A stretch of 64,000 nt of DNA from Octopus vulgaris (Eukaryota): the NCBI GenBank assembly GCA_951406725.2, contig OX597816.1, positions 152,582,001-152,646,000 of the forward strand. Reading direction: 5' to 3'. The translations under genes and the position numbers were made by a program. Within the stretch, counting starts at the first letter, position 1, and every line of letters starts with the position of its first letter. The notes beneath the pieces were generated by a model that was not told where the DNA came from, ran no database searches, and worked only from the letters and a program-made list of their open reading frames with translations. Below are positions 17,494-44,143 of the stretch, one piece after another.

Positions 17494-17538
<45 letters not shown>

Positions 17539-17740: not shown

Positions 17741-17789
<49 letters not shown>

Positions 17790-18247: not shown

Positions 18248-18343
<96 letters not shown>

Positions 18344-18995: not shown

Positions 18996-19004
18996 ACAAT
19001 ATCA

Positions 19005-19056
<52 letters not shown>

Positions 19057-19236
19057 CTTTACATTTTACTTTTGACAATCTTTTTCTAAAAAAGTGAAAC
19101 CGGTCAAGTGAATAAACATCTTTACAATTGCATTTTCAAACCTTCTTTCATATATATTTCCATTCGTGCGGTACCTTACAACTTCAATTTGTTATATATA
19201 TATATATACATATATATATATACTGACACATATCCA

Positions 19237-19337
<101 letters not shown>

Positions 19338-21598
19338 ATATATATATAAATACTAATACACACACATACATGTACATACCTACATACATACATAAATATA
19401 TGCATACATACATGCATACGGTATGAATTGATGAATTGTGTACCAAGGACAAACAAAAATATATCGATAAATTCTTGATTTACTGTAATTATTTTCGGTC
19501 TGAGAGAAAGGTGGAGAAGCTCCTAGTGATAATTGCAACTGATTCTAACTAAACAAGGATGGTAAATAGTTTCAAGCAATAAACAATGAAGAAAAGACAG
19601 TTTGGATTCTTAATCGTCTGCTGCTAGCACTACATAAGTCGATACAATCTAACCATGGTCAGTTCGGTAACATCACACAGAAATCTTTTCCAGTTTGAGT
19701 AGGATGCCTGAATATTAAAAATCAAAATCTATCAAAAAGGCGGGAGAGTCCCTTGTAGACCAACTGTTTCTTCCTCCAATTGTTGATATGTTGAAGAGAT
19801 AAGAATACTCCAGGAATGGCATATTTACATGCTAGGGACACATACACAATCACACACATATATAATGTGCCTATATGAATTTAGAAATGCATAACTAAGC
19901 CACTATTTTAGTGTGCTAATTAAAATTAAGTAGGAGATATTTAATAATGAATATCTGGTTTTACTGATGAGTAACTCACGCAAGACCAAGATCTGAGAAA
20001 GCAGTCAGTCTCCCCCTCTCGTTTTGTATGTATGTATGTATGTATGTATGTATGTATGTATGTATGTATGTATGTATGTATGTATGTATGTATGTATGCA
20101 TGTATGTATGTATGTATGTATGTATGTATGTATGTATGTATGTATGCATGTATGTATGTATCTATCTATCTATTTACACACACACACACACAAGCACACA
20201 CGCGCGCACACACACACACACATACACACGCGCACACATACACACGCGCGCATGTGTGTGTACGTGTCATTCGCCACATTACTAGTCTGCTGAATAGTTA
20301 TATTAGTTTCTCGAATATTCCCATCTCTTCACTCTCACTACCTTTCCCCTGCTTATTTTTCCTTTTCAAGCACACTTTTAATTGCTAGACTTAACTCTTA
20401 TGTCTATATTCTACGGGGATGGGGGAATCTTTTTAATGCCAGAGGCGAACTGCAAGTGCATAAGAACCTGTGTCGGTGCATCCATTCTAAAAAATACTTT
20501 ATTTTACAAATTCGAACGTTTGTTAAATTACCGTTAGACTTTATAGACCTGCACGAGTCGTACTTCTTTTTTCATATGATTTGTTAGTAACTACGTTATC
20601 GACGGTTTTAAATTTAAATGCGGGCGAAATTTCGCCTACTGAAAAGAGGTTTCTAACTTCTCTTGTATATTTTCAGATACTCGCTTGCAAGCTTTTACTG
20701 TTGGTGTTTTAACCGTCTTCTTCCTTTACTTTCTCTTGTATTTTCTGCTTTCTCACTCAATTTTAAATACCCTCTTCCACCTCTTTTTCATCTCTCTGAG
20801 TATCTTACTCTTCTGGTAGCCTTTCAAACTTGTATCGGAGAATAGTCCTAGGGACGATATGGCTTCTATCACCGTAGTGAAAACCGGACAGGGAGTCTGG
20901 TCTATTCGAAATGTAATCAATCCGTATACTAGGTTGACGGATCTCCAAGTCCTACACGGCAATCTCGCTCTTGTGCTGGTACTACAGTAAAGCACCTTCA
21001 AAATTATGACATCTTAGTCTCCTTCAGCAGCATCAAGATAAACTATCTACAAATGTCAATGAAACCATCTTGTACTACATCCTCTCTCCTTTTAGAACTA
21101 ACTAAGTTGTTAAATTGGTTGGCATCACAATTTTTCATGGCAGACACGTATAACATTGTAGATACCGAATTCCAGTGTTCCCATTGCCGCAGAATGTCTG
21201 ATGATATTTCATACCTGATCAGTCACTAACTCAGCAAAATTCAAGATCATCTTATTCAGATATCTGAGACATTGTTGCTACTTTATTAACAAATATCCAG
21301 ATGGCCATTTGGCTCATTGGTAGCTTCATTCAACAACTAATCACCGAGGCGCTGTTTCTTCTCTTTGCCTCGAATTCCGAATTTAAAATTACATTTGCTC
21401 TAAGGAACTAGTTAGCCTCATACTTCACTGCGCAATCACACTCACCAGATATTGCATTTTATCGTTTAATCATTCATCTCTAGAAACGCACGCTTCTGGG
21501 ATTCCTTCAAAAGGAAGATGCCAGGAGGAATCATATACTAGAGGAAACAAAAATGAAGGCTGTTTGTTACTTCTTCGCTAAAACTCATACTATTAACT

Positions 21599-21653
<55 letters not shown>

Positions 21654-21728
21654 GTCATTGACATTTCTCCCAGTCAATGATAGTGACTACTTTAAACAAA
21701 CATTGTACAATAGTGTCATGGATTTCTA

Positions 21729-21763
<35 letters not shown>

Positions 21764-22085
21764 TGAGGCGTGTTTTATTGCGTCACTGCACTCAGCAGAC
21801 TTCAATATAACTTTAATGCCTTTACTCATGTCTCATCTCTCTCCCTCTCTCTCTCTTCCACTCTGTCTCAAGCACGAACACACGCGCACACACATACATA
21901 CGCGCACACACACATAGACACACGTACACACATACACATGCGCACCCGCATACACACGCTCACACGCATGCACACGCGCACATACATACACACATCCTCT
22001 CCCTCGCATTGTGATGGGTGCTTTGTATTTCGTTTCTTTCTGTCTGTATATCTGTGTCAATTTAACTACCTTTATCTATATATCT

Positions 22086-22146
<61 letters not shown>

Positions 22147-23291
22147 TGTCTGTCCGGCTCTGTGGCTATTTGTCAGTCTGTCTGCCTGTCTGGCTATCAA
22201 TCTTTTTATCAAGTGAATTAGTGAAAAGATTTTCACAAAAATATTTTGAAAAATTCATGTATGAATGTATGTATGTATGTATGTATGTATGTATGTATGT
22301 ATGTATGTATGTATGTATGTATGTATGTGTATGTGTGTGTGTGTGTGTGTGTGTGTATGAGTGAGTGTGCGTGTGTCTGTTTACATGTACAGAAGTGGGC
22401 ATCTGAAAGACAGTTAGCGTAAGTAAGGATCGTGTTATCTTTTTTAGCTTGTATACGAGAAGAGGTTGAATGAAATAACAATAAAAAATGCTGGACTCCT
22501 CCCCATTTCCTTCTCTTTCTTCTATTATTCTCTCTCAATAAGAACACACTGTCAAACGCTTTTGTTTTTACTGACATACTATGCAAATGACACACACTCA
22601 GGTACACACATACAAAACTACCCTTCTCTCTATAGAGAAATTGTAAATATTATATGCATGCGTCTATTTTTTAATTCGTAGAAATCTTCCACTGAGGAGG
22701 GAACCGGTTTCCAACAAAGACACAAGGCTCCATCTTTGGGATGTAGTTAACACAGACAAATTCACATTTGGAACATGAGAAAAGTCATGCATATTTTTAC
22801 TGTTCCACTCACAGATTGCTCTTGTAACGTACGAATACACAAGGACATTATGACAGTTGTAATCACTTTAGAAGAAACAAAAACAGGTGTGCTATTTATT
22901 TAGATATATTAGATCTTTTTAACCTTCATTTTTTCTTGCACTTGTTTCAGTCATTAGAGTAGAGTCTATATCCTCACCCCACTTCCACATGCATGCATAC
23001 ACATTCACCTTCATATTTAATACAGCGGCGTACAGTAAAAATTGAAAACACCCTTCTTAACACACATCGGACGCTTCCCGTTTTTCTATAACCTTCTGTC
23101 TATTTTATTTTATTCAATTCGTCTTAGCTATAAACATGTGTACCATTGTAATCTTTTAAAGTGTCTACCCGTGACGGTCTGTAAGGAGAAAATGGAGCCA
23201 GTTATATATTTATTATTATTATGTGAGAATGCCAGTGTTGGTGACGATTGTAGCAAGAAGAGATGACAGTCAGTTAAAAGTAAATTATGTC

Positions 23292-23330
<39 letters not shown>

Positions 23331-23331
<1 letters not shown>

Positions 23332-23543
23332 CCTTTCTACTATAGGCACAATGCCTGAAATTTGGTGGGATGGGCCACCCGATTATATCAGCCTCAGTGC
23401 GTAACTGGTACTTATTTAATCGATCCTGAAAGATGAAAGGCAAAGTCGGCCTCGACGGAATTTGAACTCACAACGTAATGACGGACGAAATGCTGGTAAA
23501 CATTTTGTCCAAGGTGCTAACGATTCTCCTAGCTCACTGCCTT
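23331..23543 (-). mobile_element. tRNA-derived SINE, family A
   Basis: Reverse complement of the 13042 consensus, with (TAA)n tail. Confidence 0.85.
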
Positions 23544-23593
23544 AATAATAATAAAAAGCATCTCGCTGTTTATTTATTATTATTATTATTATT

Positions 23594-24109
23594 GAGTGAG
23601 AGAGCAGTTCATGCCATCAAAGTGACACTGGGGTAAAATATACGAAGCCCAATATACCCATCATGACTACCCATCTGATAAAGGTACACCAGGCACATGC
23701 ATCACAACCATATGTGCGCGACATGGTGATCTCATATCAAGATAAACAGCACATGACCTTGCAGGTGGGGCCCAGTTAGAATTTTCTTTAGGTTGAGTAG
23801 CCCATCCCGCTCAAACGGTCCCTGAATAAGGGTTGTTTAAGGATGTTGAAAGAACCACCCATGTTTCCAGAGGTGAACTATTCAAACCCCAAAGAATCCC
23901 TCTCAACACATGGCTATGATGCTCCCCCACTACTTCTGCTCGTGATCAGAGATGCACATATCGTCAGCCACTAAGGGACATGCTCAACTGGTTAAGGTCA
24001 AACAACTGACAAGCAAATCTGTGGTATTGAGCAGAATATTTGCTGTAGCCCATCTTATATACCAAGACAAAACAATGTATATGATAACACTTCCAATCAG
24101 TTAAGATCT
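23594..24109 (-). repeat. ~515 bp probable retroelement-derived insert with (ATT)n on both sides
   Basis: Complex, GC-richer sequence bracketed by (ATT)n at 23574-23593 and 24110-24182; no credible ORF. Orientation is only tentative, assuming an (AAT)n tail. Confidence 0.55.
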
Positions 24110-24113
24110 TATT

Positions 24114-24183
<70 letters not shown>

Positions 24184-24191
24184 TCTATTAT

Positions 24192-24410
24192 AAGGCGTCG
24201 AACTGGCAGAATCGTTAGCACGCTAGACGAACTACTTAGCAGTATTTCTCTCGTCGCTGTGTTCTGAGTTCAAACTCCGCTGAGGTCGAGTTTGCTTTTC
24301 ATCCTTTCGGGGTCGATAAAAAAAGTACCAGTTGAAAACTGGGGTCGATGTAATCGACTCATCCCGTCCTCCAAAACTGCTGCTCTTGTGGCAAAATTTG
24401 AAACCATTAT
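24192..24410 (+). mobile_element. tRNA-derived SINE, family A
   Basis: aaggcgtcgaactggcagaatcgttagcacg...gagttcaaactccgctgaggtcga... Confidence 0.85.
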
Positions 24411-24478
24411 TACTCTCTATTATTAGACTATAATTATCACATTCTTCCTTCCTGAGCATACATATGTATGTATGCGGC

Positions 24479-24553
<75 letters not shown>

Positions 24554-24637
24554 GTTTAAATATATATATATACAATAGAAATACAAAATGGCTGACGGTT
24601 AGTAAGGAGAGACACAAGTAAGTGAGAAGAAAACAAA

Positions 24638-24682
24638 GGACCACTGATGCGGTCACAGGAGTGTGACGAAAGAACTTTGGCC
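24638..24682 (+). ncRNA. Hammerhead-like motif (one core change) inside a ~240 bp insert between (TA)n tracts
   Basis: ggacca CUGAUGC-G gucaca(ggag)ugugac GAAA gaac UU uggcc. Stems I and II form; A9 is C. Confidence 0.5.
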
Positions 24683-24790
24683 GAAATAAGATTAAGATTA
24701 ATGTAAAAAATAAATATCACTGAAGCAAAATAACACCAAATATATAGTGCGTGTGTTTTTATTGGCTAAACTGGCAATATGACCATTCCG

Positions 24791-24831
<41 letters not shown>

Positions 24832-25045
24832 TCGAGAGAGAGAGAGAGAGAGACATACACATATAAAAATACGCACATACAAGCACTCTTATAGCCAGGG
24901 TTGCGTCAACAGGTTCGAATGTCTCCTACTCGCGACTTCATGCAAATATAATTATTAACTAATATTTTAGCTAAATTTTGTATTTTCATATATTAGACGA
25001 TTAATGGCGGATTTAGACTGGAATCCTTATATACCTATTATATGT

Positions 25046-25120
<75 letters not shown>

Positions 25121-25603
25121 GCCAACTTAACCTTAGTTAAAAGCTTTAAGAAACGTTTAATACAAGAGTAGTAGAAAACAAAACTCTCTCCGGTTGTATT
25201 TTCAAATTCTGAACTGATGTCGATTTCTTGAAATAAAATGCTTTCTTCCTATGTTCAAATGTAAATTTTCCTCATAGAAACCCGTATATTTTCTTGCTGA
25301 AAGTTGTACTTTCGAAATACCAACATATACATAGCTATTTGCACAGTCGTACTTGCATATTTCCATCACATTAAAAAATATTAACAAACTCACACATATA
25401 TACACACGTACATTGACTCACGTACGTTGTGGGCAATAGTCACGAAAGTTAAAAACGAAATATTTTTTTTTTCCTTTTGTTGAAATGTTCAACAAATTTT
25501 GTCATAACAAAACCAGCACAACATAATCGCCTACAGACGCACATACACTCACTAAGACCTAGTTTTTCTTTATTGGAGGGCGGCATAAGTATCTACACAC
25601 ACG

Positions 25604-25677
<74 letters not shown>

Positions 25678-25822
25678 GTATATGAAGCTTAAAGGTGCAC
25701 GGGCGTATAATACTTAAGAATTTCACACAAATGTTACGCTGATGCTACTTGAGAATTACGTCAAGGTAAGCTTGTCTGTGGAATTCTCAGCCGTTATTGC
25801 AAACCCACTTCAATATGGTTTG

Positions 25823-25911
<89 letters not shown>

Positions 25912-27040
25912 GTATTCGCAGTTTCTGTCTATCAAGCTTCACCCAAAATGCGTTAGAAAAATATACTTTCTAGAGTGCTACACAGTGGGATTGAACCATT
26001 GTTACGTCAAACCAAACATGCAAATACCACACCGTTGGCTCAGTTTGTACTAATTTCTGAGCAACTTATTGAATCCAGCTTGATGCTTCACTGTTGCATT
26101 TTCTATTAAATACAACCCAATATCTTTTTCTATTTCTTTCGTTTCTATGAATTTATTGCCTTTTGTGGAGTGGTAAGCTCTCGTAAAGTGTAGGGATTGA
26201 GGCTTCGATTTTCCCACCTTTGCATCAAGTGATGATGGTTGACTCAAATTTGTAACAAGCATTTGTAACAAGCATTAAGATACTAGGGTGGTGATTTTCA
26301 AGCTTTGTGTCGTAAAGGATGTCCGGGTGCAGTGTAGGTGGTGCTTAGATGTGACACGATGGGTGTCTAAATGCACTGCTTTTTTATTATTAAATATAAT
26401 TGAAAGCTTTAGAAAATCCATATAGATATTTGAGTCTTGAAAAATGTTATTCATAATGAGGTTATGCACTAGTATGAATAATAATGAAGGTAAGCAACAG
26501 TTTTCAATATCTTTTCACTCTAAAACAGTTTGCTTCTTAAATTTTTTTACGAAGTCCACCAGTAATTTTTAGTACAGTGTACCACAAGGAAATCAAAATC
26601 ACAGCGACAACATGTGATTTGAGGGGTTTGTGACTGTCATTTCTTGCAAGTCAATCGTCAGATCAACAATGGATTGGCAGCAAATTAAAGTGCATGTCGT
26701 ATTTGGTTACGGCCTTTTACGCTCAGCATTCGAATCCGAACGAACTCAACTTTCCTTTCATCCTTCTGGAGTCGGCCGCATGTGAATGGAATTTATATAT
26801 GTTCTGTAAAGGTGGTTGCGGCGGTGTTGTTGTTACTTGTGCGTTTGGGAATGAATGTTCCGGTTTCTTCGTCAGAAGTGGGGAAAGGGAATGTTACACA
26901 CTTTTACTTGTACTGAATGGGCAATAGTAACTGGCACACAAATACACATTTATAAAAACACATACACACATGCTGACACAGTCGTAGACATTTACAGTCA
27001 ACCCATTTATCAGGATTATACATAATAACAAAAGACAACT

Positions 27041-27137
<97 letters not shown>

Positions 27138-27615
27138 GTGGATAAATGTTGTCTAGTAGGTGGTTTGACTAGAGTGCTTGTGGAGAAGACCACCAGTTCG
27201 ACCAGTACTCCCGCCAAGCAAGTCCCGGTCCATTTAACTTGTTACGTGCTAACCGTAGCATCAATGAATGTTTCAAGGTTTCAACTAAACAACCTACAAC
27301 CCAACCGACCACTACGTTTCTGTAATAAAATATTACAATGACTTCCACCAACACCAGAATACTCACCACCTCAACCACTACTATTTCGTCTACTATAACC
27401 ACCACTATCATATCACGACATCGACTGCAGCCACGTGCCTGCCATTATAGCCAAGAGTCTACCGTTAATTTATTGTTTATTTACGAAACATCTTGTGCTT
27501 CTTCCATAAATAACACTACTATTGACTTGTTTGCCGGGTGTATGTCTGTCTGTTTGACTTCTGCTTGCCTGTCTGCCTGCCTACCTGCCGGCTTGTATGT
27601 ATGTATGTATGTATG

Positions 27616-27646
<31 letters not shown>

Positions 27647-27769
27647 TGCATTTACATACTTAGACACACTTTTGTTATTTCACTATTACTGGAATGTCTT
27701 ACAACATAACTGAAGCTTATCCCGGTTAGGACACGGTAACCTATAGCAGATTTTGTGTGTGTGTGTTTG

Positions 27770-27833
<64 letters not shown>

Positions 27834-28032
27834 TATGCATGTGTGTGTTATATGTTTATATGTGTGTGTATATGTGTTGTATGTGTATATGTGTGAGCAT
27901 GCATACGAGACCAACCATTGATGAAACTTCGAAGTCCCTAGTTTTAAAATTATCACTGTACTTTAGAGCGAGTTGTTTTTCCAGTTGCTTACGTATTTTT
28001 TATACTTATACAAACACCCTTTAACTGCATAT

Positions 28033-28131
<99 letters not shown>

Positions 28132-28489
28132 CGGATCTTTTATACAAGATGTGTCAGTTTTTGTTTTTGAGAACACTTCTTTTAAGACCTCTAGTTTCTT
28201 CTAACTTTGTTTTTACCATACTTTTCAGATATTACACCACAACACACTAAAGCAGAAACAGTCCCATAAAGTTCAAGAAGTGTTTGAACAAATTCCTTCC
28301 AGAAATCCCGGATAAACCTCCTACATCTGGATATGTCTCCGTAAACGATAACTCTCTACTCAGTGGGCCATGTTGTCCGATTCCAGATTTGAATGACTTC
28401 GCCAGGTGGTGTTATTAAGTTAGACATGGTCTGGGCCAGTACTAGCCGAAGCTTATCAAAGTATCAAAAGTCGGCTTAAGTTAGCAATT

Positions 28490-28875
28490 GAAAATGAATG
28501 CTGTAATCGTTGCCTTGAAAGTGCAGCATAGTGATACAGAGATACCTCGCTTCTTGAAGGTAGACCGATCCTTCGTTGTCAAAGTTAGAAAGTAATTGGA
28601 AGCTACTGACAGTGATCCAACATCAGAAGCTAAACGCAAAATGCATGTACAGGGTCTTAATACCATCAAAATACATAACTTTGTATAAAAAGTCCAAGAA
28701 AATCGAGAAAAACCTAGGTAAGTCAATCAGAGCAATTGCAAAGGACCTTAAGGTTTCAAAATGCACCATCAGATGAATTGTGCATGAAGACATCCGGTAC
28801 AAGTCTTATTTGATGCAGAAGATTCTATTTATGTTGGAAGTGGCAAGAAAGAATTGTTCAACCCGAATGAAGTAC
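28490..28875 (+). mobile_element. Decayed Tc1/mariner-superfamily transposase, N-terminal HTH region
   Basis: AVIVALKVQHSDTEIPRFLKVDRSFVVKVRK* then IEKNLGKSIRAIAKDLKVSKCTIR*IVHEDIRYKSY, with stops and frameshifts. Upstream 28401-28470 recurs at about 52395-52462. Confidence 0.75.
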
Positions 28876-28931
28876 CACATGATAAGATACATGAATGTAT
28901 GTACATACATTCATGTATCTTATCATGTGGT
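28874..28931. repeat. Perfect 58-bp loopless palindrome
   Basis: accacatgataagatacatgaatgtatgt followed directly by its exact reverse complement. Confidence 0.95.
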
Positions 28932-29153
28932 GATATTATATTATGTCTGTTTCTCATTGACAGAATAATTCTGTTGATGGTAAGATATAAATTTATCATT
29001 AGTTCTATTTAGAACATGGTGGATTATTACTTGTTCTCGCTCTTTACAATCTGATTTTTCCTGTAACAACAGAAATGTCATGCGGCATCGAATCTCAGCT
29101 TTCTCATGGACAACATCTGTCTGTCTACCTGCCTACCTGCCTACCTGCCTACG

Positions 29154-29196
<43 letters not shown>

Positions 29197-29197
29197 A

Positions 29198-29280
<83 letters not shown>

Positions 29281-29466
29281 ATATATACACCCTATAGCAA
29301 TTCTCCTTTATGAATCACTAGAGGGCTAGACAAAATGTTTTAATGGTCTACTGTATTTTCATGCATTTTCATGCTATATTCGCATGCATTCCCCCACCCC
29401 GGGACTTTTTCCGCATTGGAAGGTCTTCTCAGGTTCGAATGCACCCGAACATGTTAAATGTTACTC

Positions 29467-29515
<49 letters not shown>

Positions 29516-30114
29516 GCACACAAACACAGATACATGCACTCATGATTTATGTTTATGAATGAAGCACGCCAATTCACACACACACACACATATATATGCA
29601 CATATAAGGGGTATACACATGCACATATATACACTTTTATAAAACAGCTATTAATTTTTTGTATCATGTTTAGTGACTATTTCGTTTAGTTGTACTTTCT
29701 TAGTCGAATTTTATACCAACCATTTGTGTTATGTCAACAACTTTTGCCTATTAGGTGGTTAAACGAGTTCAACAGCAACCGAGTAGATGAATCGTCACTG
29801 AAACGACTAGATAATTCATCAAGTCATTGTTGTAAAATGTTTTACATTTTCTTAATGACATATTTAAGGTATGTTCTTTTAGTTTGTTTAATCCTCATAA
29901 ACGTAAAATTATAGTATCGACTGCATATTGTTATATACTCGCATATCTAGTCTGTTGTCTAAGTTCATTTACATCTGTCAATGATATAGTGGTATGTGTT
30001 TGACCTTATATTGCCTCACTAAAGCACCCTGAGAATATTTTTCATTATTTGTGTTTTTTCGATCATATTTAAGGTGAATACTTATTACTTATTCTGTTAT
30101 CCGTTCCTGGGCGA

Positions 30115-30232
<118 letters not shown>

Positions 30233-30415
30233 GCTATCTATCTATCTATCTATATATATATATATATATCGTGAAGTATGTATGCCACCTAAATGTGGCT
30301 GACCCATATGGGACGATGCTACTGGAGTTTATAGCCCCAGGAAGACATCTCCAGCTGGCTAACGAAACACTGTGCGAAGGGAAATCATCATTTGCATCTC
30401 TAGCCTTACGCGATA

Positions 30416-30460
30416 CACACGGATCCGGGTTTCTGGGTAGTAACCCGTCATCAGCGTTTG
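30416..30460 (-). ncRNA. Minimal type-I hammerhead ribozyme motif, left arm
   Basis: caaacg CUGAUGA c-gggu(uacu)accc-a GAAA cccgga UC cgugug. Confidence 0.7.
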
Positions 30461-30704
30461 ACAGTCACCGGCTAGGGATGAGAAGTGATTCTGAACGTAA
30501 AATACCATATGCTTTTTGAAGTGATAAACCGTCGCTGACCCCGATAAAGGAGAAACAAGCAATAATAAATCTCTGAGCGAGATGTAAACAGTAGCAGCAC
30601 GACATCGTGAAGTTTTTCCTTTTTCGAGATCAGTGACGGTTTATAACTGGAAAAACATAGTATTTTGCGTTTGGAATCACTTCTCATCCTTAGCCGGTGA
30701 TTGT

Positions 30705-30749
30705 CACACACTGATGACGGGCTACTAACCAGAAACCCGGGTCCGTGTG
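30705..30749 (+). ncRNA. Minimal type-I hammerhead ribozyme motif, right arm
   Basis: cacaca CUGAUGA (30711-30717) cgggcuacuaacca GAAA (30732-30735) cccgg GUC cgugug. Stem III is the loopless palindrome ACCCGGGU. Confidence 0.75.
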
Positions 30750-30963
30750 TATCACGTAAGGCCAGAGATGGGAACGATGATTTCCCTTCGCAAATACTGA
30801 TCGGGCGCAGACAGTGTGTCGTTAGCCAGCTGGAGGAGATATCTTCCTGGAGCTATAAACTACAGTAGCATCGTCCTATATGGGTTAGCCACATTTAGGC
30901 GGCAAACATACTTCACGATGTCGTCCTGCTACTCTTTATATCTCACTCAGAGATTTATTATTG

Positions 30964-31005
<42 letters not shown>

Positions 31006-31341
31006 CAAATACTTGTGAGGTCAACAACTGAAATGTGTATAGTTCAAAGAGCAAATAACATAGTTCAACGGCGGCTGATGTGAACAATCACTGAAATATC
31101 TTGATGTTCCGCGAGAGAATTTGTGGTAAATATTTCATATTTTATGTGGTCTGTTTGTTGCTAATTCATCCTGTTTGATCATTTTGTTTGGAAATAACAT
31201 CATAACACGGATTACCTGTTGAGTCGCGGTGCACAACCAGTGTTCAGTGTCTTGGTTATATGAACAAAGATTGCATTATCTAGGTTGATGTGTGTTTGTC
31301 TGCTCTCACACAGATAGGCAGACACGTGCGCGTGCGAACAC

Positions 31342-31395
<54 letters not shown>

Positions 31396-31600
31396 ATTCA
31401 CTCACTCACTCACTCACTCACTCATTCACTCACTACAAACACATACACGCACAGTTTTATCATTTTAATTGTATAGACACCCACATATATGTAGATATGT
31501 ATGTATGTATTTATATATATATATATGTATATATATGCATATATATGTATATATACATAGTACATGATCGAAATGAATTTGTTTCTCCATTTTCTTATTT

Positions 31601-31674
<74 letters not shown>

Positions 31675-31947
31675 TAGGCAATTAGATATATTTAATATAT
31701 GTTATGTTAATAAGTGCTATTTGTAATACTTTATAGTATCTTTTCGTTCAATTCTTCGTTTACTCTAAGAATTCATTATTGGATTTTAGATATTAGTTTT
31801 TTTCTATCTCATTAGACTGTTTATGAAACACAAATTAAAAATGTCACAATATCTACTGCTCATGTCTTCTCCCCCCTCTCTCTGTGTACATATATATATA
31901 TATATATGTGCGTGTGTATGTATGTGTATGTATATAGACATGTGTGC

Positions 31948-32100
31948 GTGTGGCCATGTGGTAAGAAGCTTACTTCCCAACCACATGATTCCGGGTTCAA
32001 TCTCATTGTGTGATACCTTGGGCATCTGTCTTCTACTATAGTGAGTGGATTCGGTAGACGGAAACTGAATGAAGCCCGTTGTATATATGTATATGTGTGT

Positions 32101-32138
<38 letters not shown>

Positions 32139-32218
32139 TTCTGTCTGCGTTCTAATTACCCCTCACCACCACTTGACAACAAGTGTTGGTGTGTTTACGT
32201 CCCTATAACTTAGCAGTT
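31948..32218 (+). mobile_element. SINE, family C
   Basis: tggccatgtggtaagaagc..ccgggttcaatc..ccttgggcatctgtcttctactatag..gtgagtggattcggtagacggaaactg. Confidence 0.75.
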
Positions 32219-34116
32219 TATTCTGCCCCTTTACGTTCTGAGTTCGGATCCTGCCGACTTTATTTCTCACTCTTTTGAGGTTGTTAAAATATCCAGCAGT
32301 CGACATCATTCACTATTCTCTAGAAGGTAAACAGCATAATTACCTTTCAATGATCGAGACTAGTGAGAGTCTGTATCTATGTATAAGCTATAAGAACGGA
32401 AAACAGGAGAGACAGAATTCGAAGAAGATAAATTCGAGAATGTAAATGAAGATGAAATAAGACGAAAAAATCATACTAAATATGTCTAAGTATAAATGAA
32501 ACTGTGTGCTTATCAATATAAATAAAACTGTTATATGAATGGATAACGAGATACATCGGGGCACTGATATTTTGTCGGATAACTAAAGACGGTGCTCCAG
32601 CATGGCTACAGTCAAATGACTGAAACATGTAAAAGAATAAAAGAATATACCATGTGTCCTCATGCTTTGAGTATTATATTGGCAACGCTTTTTGGACCCC
32701 GTAATAGATGCAAGCACCAACATACACGGTTTAATTGTGCTACGTTTGTAATCCTCAAAAATGTCTTGTATAAAAAAATGTGTGTTGTCCTGACTGCTCT
32801 AGTAACAAATAAAGGGAAGGATTATTGCTTTTATATATTTTAAAGGTTAATACGTGTATTCAAAGTGGCCGGTTAGTTAAAGCATTGAAGAGGCAAGCCC
32901 ATAGATTGGATGTTCTAATATATTTCCTATGTTCGGTATGGCTTCAGATTAATTTTCTATTTATTGCGAATTAGAGTTATAGTTACAGGAGGATATTAAC
33001 CCATTTTCTTTTTTTGAAAACAACGCCAACGAATAACCTGAACAAGTATATCACATTATTTACTAAGTCATAAATCGGCGGTTCTCAATGAAATTTGTAT
33101 AGAAAAAATATCGAGGAAAGATTGATATTATTTGAAAAGATTAAGACCAGAAACCAAAATAATTATTTGTATTTGAATTGACTGAAATAGTTATATGTAA
33201 TAATACTCAAATACTGAGTAAAATTCCGATTAGATTTTATGGTAAGATAACAGATTCATGGATCATAAGTGAAAATCTGATGTTGGTAATTCGTTGCGGT
33301 CCTACTCACAACATTTCACTCATTGTTGTGTTAGTTTATTTAGAAGTCAGGAATGTGAATCTGATCATCTAACAATCTCCAGTATCGATAGGCTCGGTTC
33401 GTCTAACGACTGGATCCAGATCCACCTTTTGATTTGAATTGCCTGTGAGGGAAGTGTACGGTACACACATAGATATCAATCAACTGTCAGAAGCCTATCT
33501 CTCTCATCCACGAAGAATTCTTAACAATACAGAGGTTAAGTTGATGATATACAGCAATAGTGAGGCATTCTTTATGTTGGATTTGTAATCTGAAATACTG
33601 AAGTCCCTACCCAGTATATTAATATTCTCTTTTGTATATTAAACTTTCATTGAAGCTAAATTAGATTTCTGATTCCTCTAAGGCAATATTGTAAAACTAT
33701 ATTGAGTTCGAATACAGTGATGAGAGGTGAGTCCTGATATTTCGAATAGTGCCGACAAAGACTATCCCTAGCTCCATTGAATTCGTTTCTCATCTATAGA
33801 CAGCCTATGCTATGCAGTCTATGAACAAGGACAGTCTATTATAGGTTTCCATCAACGGAAAACCACGCCCATTTTCTTCAAACCCATTTCTTTTCCATCT
33901 TCCTCTCCCATTCTCGTTTACTTTCTTCCTTTCCTTCACCAAAGTAAGCCGCAGCCTATGTTCACTCCTTCTCATAGCCATCATTAACACCCAACCATTC
34001 ACCCACTAACAATCTAAAAGACTCCGTTCCTACCGCTCTCTATTCAACGCGCCTTTTACCTCCGCCATCTCTCATCATTTCGCCATCAGTCATCACTCTA
34101 AAATTCTTTTACTTAC

Positions 34117-34213
34117 TCCTCTTTCCCCAATCTAACTGAAGTCAGCAGCGCAATCAAGTCTCTTTCTGTGTATTCGTGCATGCAATATTTGATCTCGTCT
34201 CCACGCCCACCCA
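34117..34213 (-). CDS. grh: Candidate upstream Grainyhead exon, GGRGDEIKYCMHEYTERDLIALLTSVRLGKE(E)
   Basis: Acceptor ttttacaatttcag, consensus donor GA|gtaagt, 97 nt open frame, phase 1/2. Same strand and phase-compatible with the 11905 exon across a ~22 kb intron. Confidence 0.55.
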
Positions 34214-34952
34214 CTGAAATTGTAAAATGCCAATCCGCCAACCCACCAATGATCATCATCATCATTGTCATCATCGACGTCGTCATCGTCTTAGTCGTTA
34301 TTGTCATCGTCGTCCCTCCCCTCTTTTTCCTACACTCCCTCTTATACTCCCTTTTCCCTCCTTGTCTCTAATTCTCTTCTATTCTTCCTTTTCCTTATTC
34401 TTTCACACTTTTCATCCATCACCACCACTACCAAACTCCATGTAGTCGTTCGACCTCCTAGAAAGAGTAGCCTAGTCTCACTGAAATCACACTTTACTAT
34501 CTTAAACGGAGAAAAAAACATCTTGCGTAATGTAAACCAATGTACACAGTGACTGATAAATATAATAACAAAGGTGAGAGACGATCATGGCTGGAATGCC
34601 TTTTGGTCATACACAGCTCTGCTCATTCAGAGTCGACTTGGACAACAACAACAGTAGCAACAATAAAACCAATTCCACAAGGCTAAGACTTGCACGAACT
34701 AACACAACTGCGGCGGCGGATAATATGAAGGTTATTATTAAGAGCAAAGTATTGAGTCACTTACAAAGAATTAAAGCGACCCGTTTAAACATACTTCTTT
34801 GTAGAGCCAGCACACCTCTTTTTGAGCAAAGGATATCAAACAAAATGCAAAGCAACTATACTCACTATTTCAAGATAGAAAGTATGTATGTATGTATGTA
34901 TGTATGTATGTATGTATGTATGTATGTATGTATGTATGTATGTACGCATGCA

Positions 34953-34986
<34 letters not shown>

Positions 34987-35137
34987 AACTTGGTAATTAA
35001 CAATACTTAATAATACAATAAAACTAACTTGCTAACAAGACCGTTTAGCAAATAACAACCGCTGTTGCTCTAATTATAGTAGGTGAAAATTAACTTTAAC
35101 AAATTATACTTTCTGCTCAAAATCTAATCCCCCCCCC

Positions 35138-35190
<53 letters not shown>

Positions 35191-35270
35191 TATACACATA
35201 CGCACACACACATACATGTATGAGTGTGAATATATATATTTATGTATGTATACACACACGCACGCGCACG

Positions 35271-35313
<43 letters not shown>

Positions 35314-36140
35314 CAGTACTGAACAAATAAGTAACAGCTGAATTGCATTCACAATTTACTCCAATAAACCCAACTAACTAATTAACAATTCTTGTAAACT
35401 ATCAAGGTCTATTGATTAAATTATATCTATTACTAACTAGCATTTAAACATACTCTATTTATCAACTACCTAACTGTAATTAAATACACTCGCCATATTA
35501 ACTGTATTTACTAATTCTTATGATAACAAGTGTTTTAAAACATTTTCTAACTGATTTATTGAATTACAAGTTAAAGAATTGTTTAATTGACTAATCAGTG
35601 AAATTATATTGTCGTTTTTGTAAAACAACATTTTTTAAAAATGAGCTCTGAATTGTTTTCTTTCTATAGAAAAAGCTAAATGTTTGTTGAGTGGATTGAA
35701 ACTAGTATATTACCGATAGTTATTGTATAGACATGGGAATGATGACATACAAAGTGAACGTTAGCAAGATCTTAACTCAAAACTCAAAGAAAGATCAGTC
35801 CAGTAGCTACGCTGTTTCTATCAACTTGTTAATTCTTACATATTATGTAAACTATATTATTGGGATTTATTTTATGAAGATACGAGAGATGGAAAGCAAA
35901 ATTAGTTACTGGCTGGATATGAACTCAGAGCAAAGATGTTCGATTCAAGATACTGAATGTATTTCGCCCTTCTGTTCTTCTGTTTCTGTTATCTTTAGTA
36001 GTGCATTTGATATTAAAAAGCGCTCTGACTTGTTTCTCAAGTTTAAAGGTAAGTCGGTAACAAGTATGTATGTATGTATGTATGTATGTATGTATGTATG
36101 TATGTATGTATGTATGTATGTATGTATGTATGTATGTATG

Positions 36141-36186
<46 letters not shown>

Positions 36187-36208
36187 CATACATACATATA
36201 CATACATA

Positions 36209-36249
<41 letters not shown>

Positions 36250-36256
36250 ATGTATG

Positions 36257-36332
<76 letters not shown>

Positions 36333-36417
36333 TATACATACATACATACATACATACATACATACATACATACATACATACATACTGTCTTAGCATATAT
36401 ATATATATGTATGTATA

Positions 36418-36452
<35 letters not shown>

Positions 36453-36852
36453 GCTAAGACAGTAAGTGCAGAAGTCAATGAGATATAATGAGATTGTCTT
36501 TCACTATTTGTTATAGAATTATTCTTGAAGAAGACAAAAAGAAAAAAAGTTATCGTTTGTTTTTGTTAAATAAAGGAATCTGCCACTGCCTGTCATCACC
36601 TGTCGTCGACTGTGATCGCCTGTCTCCGCTTGTCTCCGCCTAACTCTGTCTAATTCAACAAGCATTAGAAAATAGAATGAATTAAGAAAAGAGCAAAAGA
36701 TAATTTTCTTTTTAAAAAAAGCATGTTTCGTCGATACTACGGATTATAGGACAACACTAAATATATTCATTTTTTCTATAAAGTGTGTCAGGCCGAGCCC
36801 ATCCCTCACTAAGCTATTGTTCAGACCACCTTTTATAAATGCAGAAAAAAAT

Positions 36853-36939
<87 letters not shown>

Positions 36940-38835
36940 TGGGAGGAGTTGTTGCATTCACACCTGTTTCATACCAGATCAAAGAAGTCAAGTTTGGAGC
37001 AATTTCACTTCACTTACATCTGTAATATTGTTACATATTATGCGGTATAAGGGACACGGTTATTGAAGAGAACCAGATTAAGAAATGAATAAAATTGTAC
37101 CTGAGGTTTATCACTTCCCCACACCTGAGGGATTCATAAGATTGACAGCTTAACTCCGGCTTCCATGGCAATTTGGCTGATTATAAGATATTTCCCCTCA
37201 TGGATAACATACTAATATATTGTAGGTAGTTTTTCTTAATGGAGGATTTTAATTCAGATGTGAACCATTCGTGATTAACGGCTTGTTATATTGTTTTATT
37301 TGTGCCATGTGGTGCAGCTGCTGATCTTGCAATGGGTAGGGACCAGAGGTGAAAGCTGATTGTCCAGTGCTGAGTACACATTTTCGACTACCTCTTAGAA
37401 AAGGATATAGAAGAAAAAGAAGGAGAAAGAGGAGGAGGAAGAGACATGGTTGTGCAGCATTAGTTGAACATGTGACAGTGTAAGAGCTTTGGCACAGACC
37501 CATGTGATGACTTGATACTTCCCTCTGCCGGCCATCGAAACACATTAATTATGCAACATACTCAGCAGTAAACTTTTATCTATATATAATGCTTATTGTA
37601 CCGTAAGTACTACAGATCATGACAACTGAGAATTGCTCAGCAATGATAAGGTGAAAGAATTATTAACCTCTGGATCCATTCGCACCCCAATTCGTTAACA
37701 TAAAAAAAATTAGCCACTAGTTAATACGAGGTCACTTATAGCGTTCTGTAAATATTAATACACTAACGCTTTACTGTGGTCTGCTTAAGTTCCACACATA
37801 CCATCTAAATTAAACTAACAAATGTGCAATTACTGAATTGCTTTTCTCTTATTACACGTCCTCATATATTACTAGGCTTTATTAAAAATTTATTGATATG
37901 TAATTAAAAATATAACATTCTGTTTGTATTTGTTAAGCGTTTTAGGTTATGCAGTAAGTCAACAAACAACAATGTCTCTGAAGGTTAGTAGATGAACATT
38001 TCGGAAGTAAAACACACACGACTTATATCAATAATATAAGTGAAAAAGAAAATGTATGGAATAAACATTCATTATTTGAAAATAATACGTAGAAGGCTAT
38101 ATATATTGCTCGTAAATTGAAGCAAATAATTTAAGAATTTAAATGAAATGCGTACTATTTTACGATCTATATTTTCTTGGGGTTCGGTGTTTTTCAATTA
38201 AGATTGAAGAAATTCTTGAATATTATCGAAATTTGGAACTTTTTGTCGACTAGTGATCTGTTTGTGAATCAAACTTTCTAAACTAAAATGAGTAATAAAG
38301 AGTGGATGTATTTTTGAATATTTCTTATTAAGTTAGTAGAAGTGCCACATTTCAAACTTTTACGTACATAAGAAAAGTTTCAATGTGTTTGAGATGAGTA
38401 GTACTTAATATTTGTTTGACAATTCTTGTGACATGAAACTGTGGACTCTTAATTCACTTCCGTAGCTTCTAGGCAAATTAACATATATATATATATAATC
38501 CGCATTATGTATTGGATTTTATTTCCTTGGCGCGTGCGTGTGTGTACAGAGAGAGAGGGAATGAGGGAGAGAGAGAGAGAGAGAGAGTATAACAGAGATT
38601 CTCAAAATACCCCATCTAAATTAAAGGTTCCAATATACATATCTTGTGAATATTTATGTTTTGGATAAGCAATAAAGCATACATACACATTATACAACAT
38701 ATGCCATTATATCATGAAATATGTGCTTGGTCGTTCATCTTGCTTGAAATAGCAGTCAAATCATCCTCAAATGAAACCTTCCCACTTTGAATAAGGAAGG
38801 GATATATAGGTTAATACAGTACTACGTATCACTCA

Positions 38836-39015
38836 AATTACAAGAATATACATACATGTATAACATATTATGCTTTACATATAAAATATACTAATATATA
38901 TAGATACCAGTACTTATTGTAAGTTATATTTTAATAATTACTGGTATCTTTATATATTAATATATTTTATATGTAAAGCATAATATGTTATATATGTGTG
39001 TATATTCTTGTAATT
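38836..39015. repeat. AT-rich foldback, arms 38836-38912 and 38939-39015
   Basis: aattacaagaatatacatacatgtataacatattatgctttacatataaaatata..gataccagta pairs with tactggtatc..tatattcttgtaatt with few mismatches. Confidence 0.9.
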
Positions 39016-39108
39016 GTCATTTTAGTAAATAAATAAGTTGACATTATATAATGTCTAAGAGTTGATGAACAACCTATTGATCCACTCCATTTTCTTATTG
39101 CTCTCTCC

Positions 39109-39158
<50 letters not shown>

Positions 39159-40227
39159 ATACATATACATTTCTCCGTTTTTTCCGTTCTTGTTTTCGTA
39201 TACATTCTTGGCTTTCTTCCAAGGAATCTAATTAGTTTTTCCTAGGGGCTGGCTATATTGGAGCAATCTCGAGTATAACCAGCCGAAATTGCAAAGATAA
39301 CCTGGAACTCGACTGAAGAAAGAAAACTCCGAATGACCCGTCCTTGTTTTCTTTGTATTGTCTATCTGGATGTTTCGTTGTCCCTTTCATGTATCACCTG
39401 TCTGGATGTTTTGCGTTTTTGGCCCATTTTGCATTTTTTAATATATACATATACATACATACATATACATACATATAGATATATATATATATTTACATAT
39501 ACATACACACATACATACATACATACATACATACATACATACATACATACATACATACATACATACATACATACACACACATATATATATGTATGTACGT
39601 AAGTATGCATGTATGTATGTATGTATGTATGTATGTATGTATGTATGTATGTATGTATGTATGTATGTATGTATTTATTTATTTCAGCACGTCTCGTCAT
39701 AGCATTTGGTTACCGTCAGTTTCACCAACTGAATTACTTTACTACTACTCACATCCTATACATCTTTAGAAAATATAACGTTTATCATTACACGTCTGCC
39801 ACCATTATTATGATTATCATTTCATATCATGAGCACGATGTTGCATTTTCTCTTTATTTCAGATTTTCATTGGTTTATTTGCTTTATAGTTCGGGGACAA
39901 CCCCCCCCCCCCCACACATACACATTGATGTCTGGCTTTGATTCAAATGAACAAATTTATAGGAACGAGAATATAGGCGATTTATCTGGACTATTTGCAC
40001 GTAACTAACGCTGAACTTCTTATTAGCAAAAAACTCATTTTTAGCAAAAACTCATACGCCTACACGACGATACTTGATGACGTTACAATACACAGTTTTA
40101 TGTTGTTAGCTTGTATTGAATGCGTTCGTGTTTTTGAACGTAAAACCTTGAGCAATAAGAAATTTGTTCTTTCGTAGGTTTTCTTTTGTGCGCATGAACA
40201 ATACATTGATGCAAGCAGGCATACAAC

Positions 40228-40307
<80 letters not shown>

Positions 40308-40464
40308 ATATATATATATATATATATATTATATGATATTTATATATATGTAATTATATATGAGTATATATATATATATTATACATATGTGTGTGTGTAT
40401 ATATATATATATATATACATATGATGTTTATATATATATAGAAATATGTATATATATTTATATC

Positions 40465-40535
<71 letters not shown>

Positions 40536-40562
40536 CATCTGTCTGTCCTGTCTATATCTCTA

Positions 40563-40629
<67 letters not shown>

Positions 40630-43139
40630 ATTTCAAATTTATAGAAATACAGACGAAGACAGGTGTAGGAACAACAAGCAAGTGTATTAATTTGATGCTC
40701 GGGAAAAATGGAAAAGTATTTTACGTTCCGAGCCTGCGCTCTTCGACATAAAGGAATAACAAGAAATAAATAGAGAGAAAATGAAGAAAAACGTGTTGAG
40801 TTCAGTCGTCCAGCATGGCGAGTGATTGGGAAAAAAAAAAAGAGGTTGAATGGAAGGGAGATAATTCATGGTGATCCCAACAAGTAGAGGTGTGCTAGAT
40901 GTGTATGTGAGTGTGTAAGTGTGTATGGGTGAATGGGAGCGAGTGAGTTTGACGTGTGTGCATGTGTGACGTGTGTAGCAGTTGATGTGTGCTTTATCAC
41001 GTGGTGTGTGTTCATGTGTATATGTGTATGTGTGTGTGTGTCATTCTGACCAAATAGTGTGTATGTGTATAGTATATGATTGTGGGCAAAAGTTTCCTTT
41101 GTCTATGTGTGTTGCGTGTGTTTATGAGTATTGCGTGTGTGTGTATGTGTATATATTGTCTGTGTTCAGGTATTATGTGCTTGTGTTGGTGTGGGAGTGT
41201 GCATGATGGTGTCTGGTGTGTGTACTGAGTTAAACAGTGTGTGTGGCTGCTGAGAAGTGTGTGTATAATGGTGTGTAGAGTGATGAGTTGACAGTGTGTA
41301 TGGGTGTATGTTTAGTGGTAGTGTGCGTGAGGGTACCGAGGTGGGCGGTATGCGGGTGTGTAGGTGGAGAGTGTGGGAGGTGAGTAGGAATCCGTGTCGG
41401 ATTGATGTCAAATGAAGAGAGTAGGTGAGTTGAATCCATATGGCACTAAGGACCGAAGAGAGAAGATTAATTCCTTTTCACTGTGTAGACGCGAGCCCGG
41501 GAAGCCCATGTGCAGAGACAGCCTGAAAACGGATAAGTGTTGTAATGAATGACTGATAGAACGGAAATAGCATGAGACCGGGTGTCATTACCGAGTCTGA
41601 TGTCCCAAAGGTGCTCCGCGAACTGGTCAGCCAAACGGCATCTCATTTGACGAATGTAGAGAAGGGCAGAGAGAGCAGGTGATGCAGTAAATGACATAAC
41701 TAGAAGTGCAGGTAAAGGAGTCGGGGACGTGGTAGAGATGGTGATGGGTGCCTGTGACGATGGTGGTTTTGGAGAGGTGCGACAGTGTAGTGGGAGCAGG
41801 TAAAGGAGCCAGATATTAGAGAAGAAACTGTGGACCAAGAGGTCACGCGGGCTGTGGGCTCGTTTGAAGGAGGGAAGAGGTATGTTAGAGAATATGTGCG
41901 AGGTGGAAAGGTAGGTCTGGAGTCGCCGGAAGGCTCAGAGAATGGTACGTTGGAAGGGTAGAGTAGAGGTGGGGTATGGATGGGGCGGGTACAAGGAGAA
42001 ATAGCAGGGGTATGGTCTACACTAAAGATCGTGTCCGGACAAAGGCAGTGTGGATAATGGTGAAGAGATATCTGTGTGGGAGGAAGTGGCGAGCCATGAG
42101 TTGAGACTGAGTCTCAAATTCATGGTCGTCATTGTAGAGCTTGCGTAGACGGAGGAATTGGGAGTAGGGGATGGAGAGCTTGGTGTGGGAAGGGTGGGGA
42201 GTGGAGAAGTTAAGGTAGGAGTGTGAGTCAGTGAGTTTGTAGTGGATGGAGATACTGAGGGTGGAGTGGCGAATGTTGACAGAAATGTCGAGAAATTCAA
42301 CAGAAGAGTTAGAGATAGTGCAAGAGAATTTGAGGGCAGGATGGAAGGATTGAACAAAGGAGAGGAAGGAGTCCAGCTGTTCGTGGGGGAGTGAGATCGT
42401 GTCAATACAGTTATCGATATAATGACCGTATTGCTCGGGAGTGGGACCAATGAATTATGAGAATATTTGAGCCTCAATATAGCCAACAAACAGGTTCGTA
42501 TAGTTGAGGTCCATTTTCGTTCCCATGGCCACAGCCGAGACATGTTGGTAAAACTCCCCCGCGGACGAGAAGCAGCTGAGGAAGTTCGACCAGTGGAAGG
42601 AGTAAGGCGGTGGCAGGTTGAGGGTCATGTCGAAGGTCTAGAAAGTGTTTAAGCGCAAGAAGTCCGTTGTGCGGGATCACCGTATATAAACTTTTAATAT
42701 CAAGAATGAACAGAAGTTGAGAGGGGCCAGAAGGGAAGGTGAAAGAGTTAACCAGACGGAGAGCATGGTTAGTGTCGTAGATGTGTGAGGGGAGGGAAGC
42801 CACTTGGGGAGCAAGGACATGGTCGAGGTATTTGGAGATCATTTCCGTAGGGTAGTTGCAGGCGGAGACGATGGGGCGGCCAGGATTGTTGTCTTGTGAA
42901 TTTTGGGAAGTAAATAGTAGGGATGCGCGGAGTACGGACAATGAGGTTGGAAGAGGTGGGAGAGAGACGGGAGGAGAAAATGAGGTCACGAAAAGTGGAT
43001 GACAAAGTCCGTTGGTAGTTAGACATGGGGTTGGAGTGCAGAGGGTAACAGAAGGAGATGTCTTGAAGTTGGCGGAGAGCTTCAGCCTTATAAAGGTCCG
43101 CGCACGACGCCACTACAGCTCCACCCTTGTCGGCCGGTT

Positions 43140-43143: not shown

Positions 43144-43188
<45 letters not shown>

Positions 43189-44112: not shown

Positions 44113-44143
<31 letters not shown>

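What the first reader, a model, noticed from the sequence alone, without database searches (positions are those of the whole stretch)
30268..30964. Double-hammerhead foldback with a circularly permuted arm
If the unit is A-B (A about 55 nt, B about 290 nt), the locus reads B-A followed by the reverse complement of A-B. The left half is therefore a permuted, tandem-derived copy, as expected from a circular or multimeric RNA template followed by inversion. Each arm has an intact CUGAUGA/GAAA/UC core, so both strands encode a ribozyme, each opposed by its own antisense. The two copies differ in ways that point to an ancestral cacacg/cgugug stem I and ACCCGGGU stem III. The minus-strand copy is sense to the putative grh intron.
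Basis: partly seen in the sequence, partly recalled or inferred. Interest (0 to 1): 0.75.

Follow-up and report, generated by a model that had tools for sequence, protein, structure and literature searches.

The report
Aged fold-back retrozyme insertion in grainyhead
An intron of the grainyhead gene holds an old mirror-image copy of an abundant non-coding repeat with a hammerhead (self-cutting RNA) motif, likely pasted in one step by a Penelope-type jumping gene; this layout is routine for the family, and the two motifs here are decayed and predicted to be inactive.

Summary
The geometry is real. There are two outward-pointing arms: the left is a permuted unit plus 10 nt, the right is nearly one unit. 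The unit is 355 nt, not about 345. Each arm has a type I hammerhead core, and the locus lies in a 38-kb grainyhead intron.

It is not special. 10 of 15 copies picked by the hammerhead motif alone are fold-backs. A young sister family (S) has arms of up to about 5.6 units; 30 of 32 of its fold-backs end one arm with and one without a ~42-nt tail, and 12-13-bp target duplications show where flanks allow. This is the published Penelope-like layout, including hammerhead pairs on opposite strands. The best reading is a decayed non-autonomous Penelope-dependent element (non-LTR retrozyme type).

Only the cores are intact: both ribozymes have broken helices, and the antisense arm is transcribed first on either strand and buries them. 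No autonomous partner, RNA or cleavage was shown. The scan noted this layout before on other DNA. The family-level rules (one long plus one short end, no stop at the cut site) are a usable handle on the Penelope mechanism.

The parts
30115..30269 (.). (TATC)n/(TA)n microsatellite, left target flank
30268..30556 (-). left arm, outer part: unit positions U1-308, ending at the short (tail-less) 3' end; 82% identical to the right arm, 19-nt deletion
30416..30460 (-). type I hammerhead motif, sense to grh pre-mRNA; predicted cut after 30422; helix I 5 of 6 pairs, helix II 4 of 5 (family-wide C.A at 10.1/11.1), helix III second pair C.A
30612..30613 (.). head-to-head inversion junction with 2-nt microhomology
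30612..30964 (+). right arm: U1-353, ending at the long 3' end
30705..30749 (+). type I hammerhead motif; predicted cut after 30743; helix I closing pair A.C, helix II only 2 of 5 pairs, palindromic helix III intact
30920..30964 (+). 45-nt 'tail' (U309-353) present at only this end of the insertion; its last ~33 nt are shared (about 91%) with the young sister family S
30965..31000 (.). (TA)n microsatellite, right target flank (hides any target-site duplication)
10665..48962 (-). grainyhead (CP2 family) intron, 38.3 kb, that contains the element

Best explanation
The locus is an old, protein-less, head-to-head copy of a high-copy 355-nt hammerhead-bearing tandem repeat (non-LTR retrozyme type), likely inserted in one event by the enzyme of a Penelope-like retrotransposon acting in trans, and its two ribozymes are predicted to be inactive today. 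Inferred mechanism: the GIY-YIG endonuclease nicks both strands of a (TA)n target about 12-13 bp apart. Each nick primes reverse transcription on more-than-unit RNA (an uncut multimer or a religated circle) at one of two internal start sites about 45 nt apart (U353 and U308). Both cDNAs stop at random and are joined by microhomology, which gives two outward-pointing arms with the tail on one end only. Shown: geometry, family membership, end rule, shared haplotype of arms, target duplications in the sister family, decayed helices, intron position. Inferred: the enzyme, the two-nick priming, the RNA template, and the lack of cleavage.
For: Copy number and layout: 5471 first-look candidates, 40 scored, on many chromosomes; 10 of 15 loci picked only by an exact 33-nt hammerhead motif are fold-backs, all at separate places. 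Ends: U 3' ends cluster at U353 and near U308, mostly next to AT-rich or (TA)n DNA; of 24 U fold-backs among 46 loci, 12 are long+short, 0 long+long, 3 short+short and 9 have one end elsewhere. Sister family S (360-nt unit, 94-100% identical full-unit copies): 26 of 40 loci are fold-backs, 24 of them long+short and 0 long+long; 6 of 6 more fold-backs among 10 further loci are long+short. Single event: 12-13-bp target duplications in 4 of the 6 S fold-backs with non-simple flanks, and overlapping junctions in 20 of 26. Same template: S units differ by 1.0% within an arm, 1.2% across arms and 3.4% between loci (91, 88 and 6880 pairs); U opposite arms share 2.7 non-majority alleles per 100 sites against 0.74 between loci, and the focal arms share 6. 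More-than-unit template: 76 of 83 S arms and 68 of 93 U arms cross the cut site, and 5' ends do not pile up there (3 against 2.5 and 3 against 2.9 expected). An autonomous RT/GIY-YIG element of this genome shows the same long/short fold-back in (TA)n (L172; Pfam on a family member). Literature: partial tandems, an inverted 5'-truncated copy and a tail on one end (PMC8557442; PMC3846280); two internal RT starts that define the tail, both strands cut and extended, hammerhead dispensable (PMC11167929); hammerhead pairs 100-700 bp apart on opposite strands (PMC4209133). Inactivity: broken helices; 31 of 33 core nucleotides paired to the antisense arm, which is transcribed first on either strand; arms 6.9% and 8.9% from the family majority at non-CpG sites.
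Against: No autonomous partner was found: U and S show no sequence link to the terminal repeats of the RT/GIY-YIG elements in 46 loci, so mobilisation by a Penelope enzyme rests on geometry. The focal flanks are (TA)n, so no target duplication is visible here, and 2 of the 6 informative S fold-backs show none. The focal arms differ at 28 of 258 non-CpG sites (10.9%), only modestly below the between-locus 14.2%. Some S loci (L117, L128) carry different subfamily alleles in different units. Gene conversion between units could mimic a shared template. S loci were chosen as best full-unit or multimer matches, which biases the end counts (it should favour long+long, which was absent).
Confidence: 0.85

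Rival explanations
1. The arms are the ends (pLTR stumps) of a longer autonomous Penelope-like element, 5'-truncated on both sides; the 355-nt unit is not an independent non-autonomous element.
For: The same layout is made by autonomous elements here (L057, L172) and is published (PMC3846280). Earlier scan notes read similar fold-backs this way.
Against: After U353 the sequence runs straight into U1 in many copies, so the repeat unit closes on itself with no ORF. S arms hold up to about 5.6 head-to-tail units.
Confidence: 0.07
2. Self-priming: one cDNA (or the RNA) folds back on itself and the second arm is copied from the first, as proposed by Arkhipova et al. 2013.
For: Junction microhomology, shared haplotype of the arms, and containment of one arm in the other is possible in 18 of 24 S and 8 of 12 U long+short fold-backs.
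Against: Containment is impossible in 6 of 24 S and 4 of 12 U cases, including this locus. Self-priming of a multimeric RNA rather than of the cDNA is not excluded by this test.
Confidence: 0.05
3. The fold-back is a functional, selected element of grainyhead: a regulated ribozyme or a source of double-stranded RNA for editing or small RNAs.
For: It lies in a grh intron with one motif sense to the pre-mRNA and would form a duplex of about 300 bp.
Against: Divergence and helix damage are ordinary for the family, the layout is the family's commonest, and the arms have drifted apart rather than staying complementary.
Confidence: 0.03

Closest known systems
Metazoan non-LTR retrozymes (Cervera and de la Pena 2020, PMC7229834; passages and sections 14 and 17 read)
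   Same: Non-coding tandem unit of 170-400 nt (mussel 350-390, axolotl 330/350) with one type I hammerhead per unit; GC 0.43 in one U unit; short palindromic helix III suited to dimers; Penelope-like elements named there as likely mobilisers.
   Different: Here copies are dispersed, mostly under two units in U and often fold-backs; U lacks the G10.1-C11.1 pair (C.A 32, U-A 13, G.A 1, A-U 1 of 47 distinct motifs); circles, expression and cleavage are not shown.
Insertions of endonuclease-bearing Penelope-like elements with inverted pLTR and tail (Arkhipova 2013 PMC3846280, Craig 2021 PMC8557442: passages read; Frangieh 2024 PMC11167929: parts 1-2 of 4 read)
   Same: Partial tandem plus inverted 5'-truncated copy, tail on one end, short target duplication, AT-rich or microsatellite targets, two internal RT start sites, hammerhead cleavage not marking the ends.
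   Different: No ORF; tail 42-45 nt rather than 30-40; the unit itself is the short repeat; partner not identified.
Opposite-strand hammerhead pairs of Schistosoma Penelope-like elements (Cervera and de la Pena 2014, PMC4209133; parts 1-2 of 4 read)
   Same: Two hammerheads 100-700 bp apart on opposite strands (here about 260 bp); palindromic helix III; dimer-type design.
   Different: Those are minimal hammerheads with a long helix II and conserved G10.1-C11.1; this one has a 6-bp helix I and a 4-5-bp helix II.
Animal retrozymes as non-autonomous PLE derivatives (Li, Clavereau, Pollet, bioRxiv 10.64898/2026.07.22.740005; parts 1-3 of 5 read)
   Same: Same proposed relationship; monomers, dimers and multimers; frequent intronic copies; 8 of 9 tested dimers did not cleave.
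   Different: That study sampled 31 vertebrates, 3 insects and a coral, no mollusc; the homology to a pLTR that it found for 24 of 57 Xenopus families was not found here.

Membership tests
Non-LTR retrozyme | Short (about 170-400 nt) non-coding unit in head-to-tail tandem | tested here: met
   355-nt unit, partial tandems up to about 1.8 units in U; 360-nt unit, arms up to about 5.6 units in S
Non-LTR retrozyme | Type I hammerhead in each unit | tested here: met
   Core and three helices in family copies; helix II differs but stays paired, and helix III stays palindromic, across U, S and a third relative. No Rfam hit at gathering score in the window.
Non-LTR retrozyme | 'Active' copy: two consecutive same-strand units with complete hammerheads (Li et al. 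criterion) | tested here: not met
   This locus has one decayed motif per strand; S multimers do have consecutive units
Non-LTR retrozyme | Expression as linear and circular RNA; self-cleavage | not testable with these tools
   Only assembled contigs were available; these cannot show RNA ends, strand or circles
Penelope-like element insertion | Partial tandem with 5' truncation plus inverted copy | tested here: met
Penelope-like element insertion | Two 3' ends defining a tail present on one end | tested here: met
   U308/U353 here; S 30 of 32 fold-backs long+short
Penelope-like element insertion | AT-rich target and short target-site duplication | tested here: inconclusive
   (TA)n on both sides here hides a duplication; 12-13 bp in 4 of 6 informative S fold-backs
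Penelope-like element (autonomous) | ORF with RT and GIY-YIG domains | tested here: not met
   No such ORF in or beside the locus
Non-autonomous derivative of a specific Penelope-like family | Sequence homology to the pLTR of an autonomous partner | tested here: inconclusive
   No link in 14 + 32 loci of RT/GIY-YIG elements from two protein searches; other families were not sampled
Canonical hammerhead ribozyme | G10.1-C11.1 and intact helices I-III | tested here: not met
   C.A at 10.1/11.1 in both arms plus arm-specific mismatches; met in all 13 distinct S variants for G10.1-C11.1

The most novel reading that the evidence does not exclude
These octopod families record in DNA how Penelope enzymes work: a dimeric enzyme primes both strands of the target at two fixed internal sites on a circular, sometimes multimeric, retrozyme RNA and rolls around it. 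This would explain the strict one-long-one-short end rule (30 of 32), arms up to about 5.6 units with no longer array found, no stop at the cut site, and locus-private variants that recur with period 3 (L101) or 2 (L091, L103). The young family S would then be a live circular-RNA retroelement in which this can be tested directly.
Probability: 0.3. Interest if true: 0.55.

Novelty: new member of a known kind. Interest (0 to 1): 0.22.

Why it matters
The locus itself matters little: it is one of probably thousands of decayed copies. What is useful is the family comparison. How Penelope-like elements make tandem and inverted insertions, and whether retrozyme circles are the templates, are stated as open in PMC8557442 and PMC7229834. 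The young sister family gives short, near-identical, multi-unit fold-backs with an intact hammerhead, in which two-nick priming, self-priming and rolling-circle copying make different predictions. Three searches turned up no paper on a cephalopod retrozyme family or on the paired-end rule as a count; repeat libraries (Repbase, Dfam) and paper supplements were not seen, so the families may already be catalogued there.

Tried and rejected
Rfam at gathering score: 0 hits in the window. A 39-nt exact hammerhead pattern: 0 genome hits; the 33-nt version gave 15.

Long satellite arrays: none among the 40 scored candidates for a 1.6-unit U query or a 3.9-unit S query; collapsed arrays are not excluded.

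Classic L1-type twin priming (one arm starting where the other ends): 5 of 24 S and 4 of 12 U cases within 25 nt, against 6.3 and 3.2 by chance; rejected. Cleaved linear monomer as template: rejected.

Partner search: a GIY-YIG frame near a U copy (L054/L057) proved a separate insertion. The RT/GIY-YIG elements sampled share no sequence with U or S; the U hits in L168, L191, L195 and L198 read as separate neighbouring copies.

Circle versus linear multimer from shared variants: 13 of 40 multi-unit S loci gave 167 singleton and 15 shared columns, with mixed patterns (period 3, period 2, adjacent pairs, index-matched); gene conversion is not excluded. The singleton count includes end-gap noise (70 in L099).

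Expression: no RNA holder listed. Contigs of guessed-RNA runs matched only pieces at family level, and none covered a grh exon; no evidence either way.

My first grh protein query (protein 1) was in the wrong reading frame and found nothing; corrected. Six U arms starting at U46 are probably an alignment break at an indel of the reference arm, not a feature. A sequence look-up in earlier findings returned nothing; the split-core hammerhead notes concern a different motif.

Full report
Observation. The locus sits between (TATC)n/(TA)n and (TA)n tracts. With the right arm (30612-30964, +) as U1-353, the left half is the reverse complement of U299-353, a 2-nt joint and U1-308, and the halves overlap by 2 nt at 30612-30613. 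Hammerhead cores begin at 30711 (+) and 30454 (-), with predicted cuts after 30743 and 30422. Rfam gave no hit at gathering score.

Host gene. CP2-domain exons lie on the minus strand at low coordinates. A full-length Argonauta protein maps a 16-codon exon to 49010-48963 with AG/GT ends and the next exon from 10664, and an N-terminal exon beyond the window. The element is therefore in a 38.3-kb grainyhead intron, with the left-arm motif sense to the pre-mRNA. The genome (2.8 Gb) is by inference an octopod's.

Family U. A genome search gave 5471 first-look candidates, of which 40 were scored, with best pieces about 75-91% identical on many chromosomes. Copies are monomers, partial tandems and fold-backs with variable 5' ends and two preferred 3' ends, U353 and about U308, mostly next to AT-rich or microsatellite DNA. 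An exact 33-nt hammerhead pattern, blind to layout, hit 15 separate places (control 0), and 10 of the 15 are fold-backs. Of 46 loci, 24 were fold-backs: 12 long+short, 0 long+long, 3 short+short and 9 with one end elsewhere. The longest U tandems found were about 1.8 units (12 loci mapped of 40 scored). The median copy is 8% from the column majority at non-CpG sites; the focal arms are 6.9% and 8.9%.

Sister family S. Locus L037 held a young relative with a 360-nt unit, 65% like U over the hammerhead region and 91% over the last 33 nt. Its full-unit copies are 94-100% identical (1874 candidates, 40 scored). Of those 40 loci, 26 are fold-backs; 24 end one arm at about 358 and the other at 313-318, and none is long+long. 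Ten further loci gave 6 more fold-backs, all long+short. Arms reach about 5.6 units, and no longer array appeared with a 3.9-unit query. Junction arms overlap by 1-16 nt in 20 of 26; 4 of 6 fold-backs with non-simple flanks have a 12-13-bp target duplication, 2 have none, and 20 lie in simple TA repeats. Units differ by 1.0% within an arm, 1.2% across arms and 3.4% between loci, and some locus-private alleles are fixed in both arms. These loci were selected as best matches, so the counts are not a random sample.

Mechanism tests. Arms do not stop at the hammerhead cut: 76 of 83 S arms and 68 of 93 U arms cross it, and 5' ends near it match chance, so the template was uncut multimer or religated circle. 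One arm does not start where the other ends, unlike L1 twin priming. Copying the second arm from the first cDNA is impossible for 6 of 24 S and 4 of 12 U long+short fold-backs, this locus included. What fits is two cDNAs primed from opposite target strands at two internal sites. That is inferred from Frangieh et al. (PMC11167929, parts 1-2 of 4 read), who found that a Penelope-like protein cuts and extends both strands, starts at two internal sites that define the tail, and does not need hammerhead cleavage. Variants shared by some units of a locus are mostly private to it; L101 shows period 3 at three sites, and others show period 2, adjacent pairs or matched positions in both arms. Multimeric circles, a longer source array and later gene conversion all remain possible.

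The ribozymes. Across U, S and a third relative, helix II changes sequence but stays paired and helix III stays palindromic, so the mobile ancestors likely kept the fold. S has G10.1-C11.1 in all 13 distinct variants; U has C.A or U-A there. In the focal right arm the helix I closing pair is A.C and helix II keeps 2 of 5 pairs; in the left arm helix I has one mismatch and helix III a C.A second pair. Short palindromic helix III motifs are reported to need a same-strand partner (PMC4209133), which neither strand has. On either strand the antisense arm is transcribed first, and 31 of 33 core nucleotides pair with it in a structure of about -460 kcal/mol. Cleavage of grh pre-mRNA is therefore unlikely; this is a prediction.

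Partner. Two protein searches found large RT/GIY-YIG families with open frames of 800-1200 codons. In 46 loci none shared sequence with U or S, though one shows the same long/short fold-back in (TA)n (L172). The mobilising enzyme is not identified.

Comparison and novelty. The layout is published: partial tandems, an inverted 5'-truncated copy and a tail on one end (PMC8557442, passages; PMC3846280, passages), and opposite-strand hammerhead pairs. The unit fits non-LTR retrozymes (PMC7229834, passages and two sections), which are proposed to be non-autonomous Penelope derivatives (bioRxiv 10.64898/2026.07.22.740005, parts 1-3 of 5). Searches for hammerhead+Penelope+octopus, retrozyme+cephalopod and Penelope+inverted+twin priming+tail listed no paper on these families; supplements and repeat libraries were not seen. 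Earlier notes of this scan reached the same kind of reading on other DNA.

Verdict: a real but ordinary, decayed member of a known kind, interest 0.22. The sister family is the better object for follow-up.

Noticed in passing
L037:1-684; L089-L128; L217-L226: Young 360-nt hammerhead repeat family S with a canonical motif, multi-unit fold-backs and a strict one-long-one-short end rule; candidate live retrozyme. One unit folds as a circle at z = -5.0 against 60 shuffles.
   Followed up: yes
L101 (G000:C3:51539979-51542157): Variants at three sites (two of them private to the locus) recur with period 3 along a 5.4-unit arm; a single unequal crossover after insertion would need a longer starting array, which hints at a trimeric template.
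   Followed up: partly
L159-L172, L057:1807-4315: Very abundant young RT/GIY-YIG element (21,819 candidates) with tandem and fold-back copies in (TA)n and two 3' ends about 35-40 nt apart; my pattern found no canonical hammerhead core in its terminal repeat.
   Followed up: partly
L185-L196, L197: Second young RT/GIY-YIG family with open frames up to 1200 codons and a hammerhead-like motif with a UUGAAGA core; a third family (L197) has a minimal CUGACGA motif.
   Followed up: no
window 41467-43227 (-): Broken RT/GIY-YIG retroelement remnant in the same grh intron, related to the second family, with no sequence link to the fold-back.
   Followed up: partly
L198:1297-1515; L168:6-64; L010: Further relatives of U with other helix II and helix III sequences, showing a clan of hammerhead repeats.
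   Followed up: partly
window 48963-49010 (-): 16-codon grainyhead exon separated from the next exon by a 38-kb intron; 15 of 16 residues are identical in Argonauta.
   Followed up: yes
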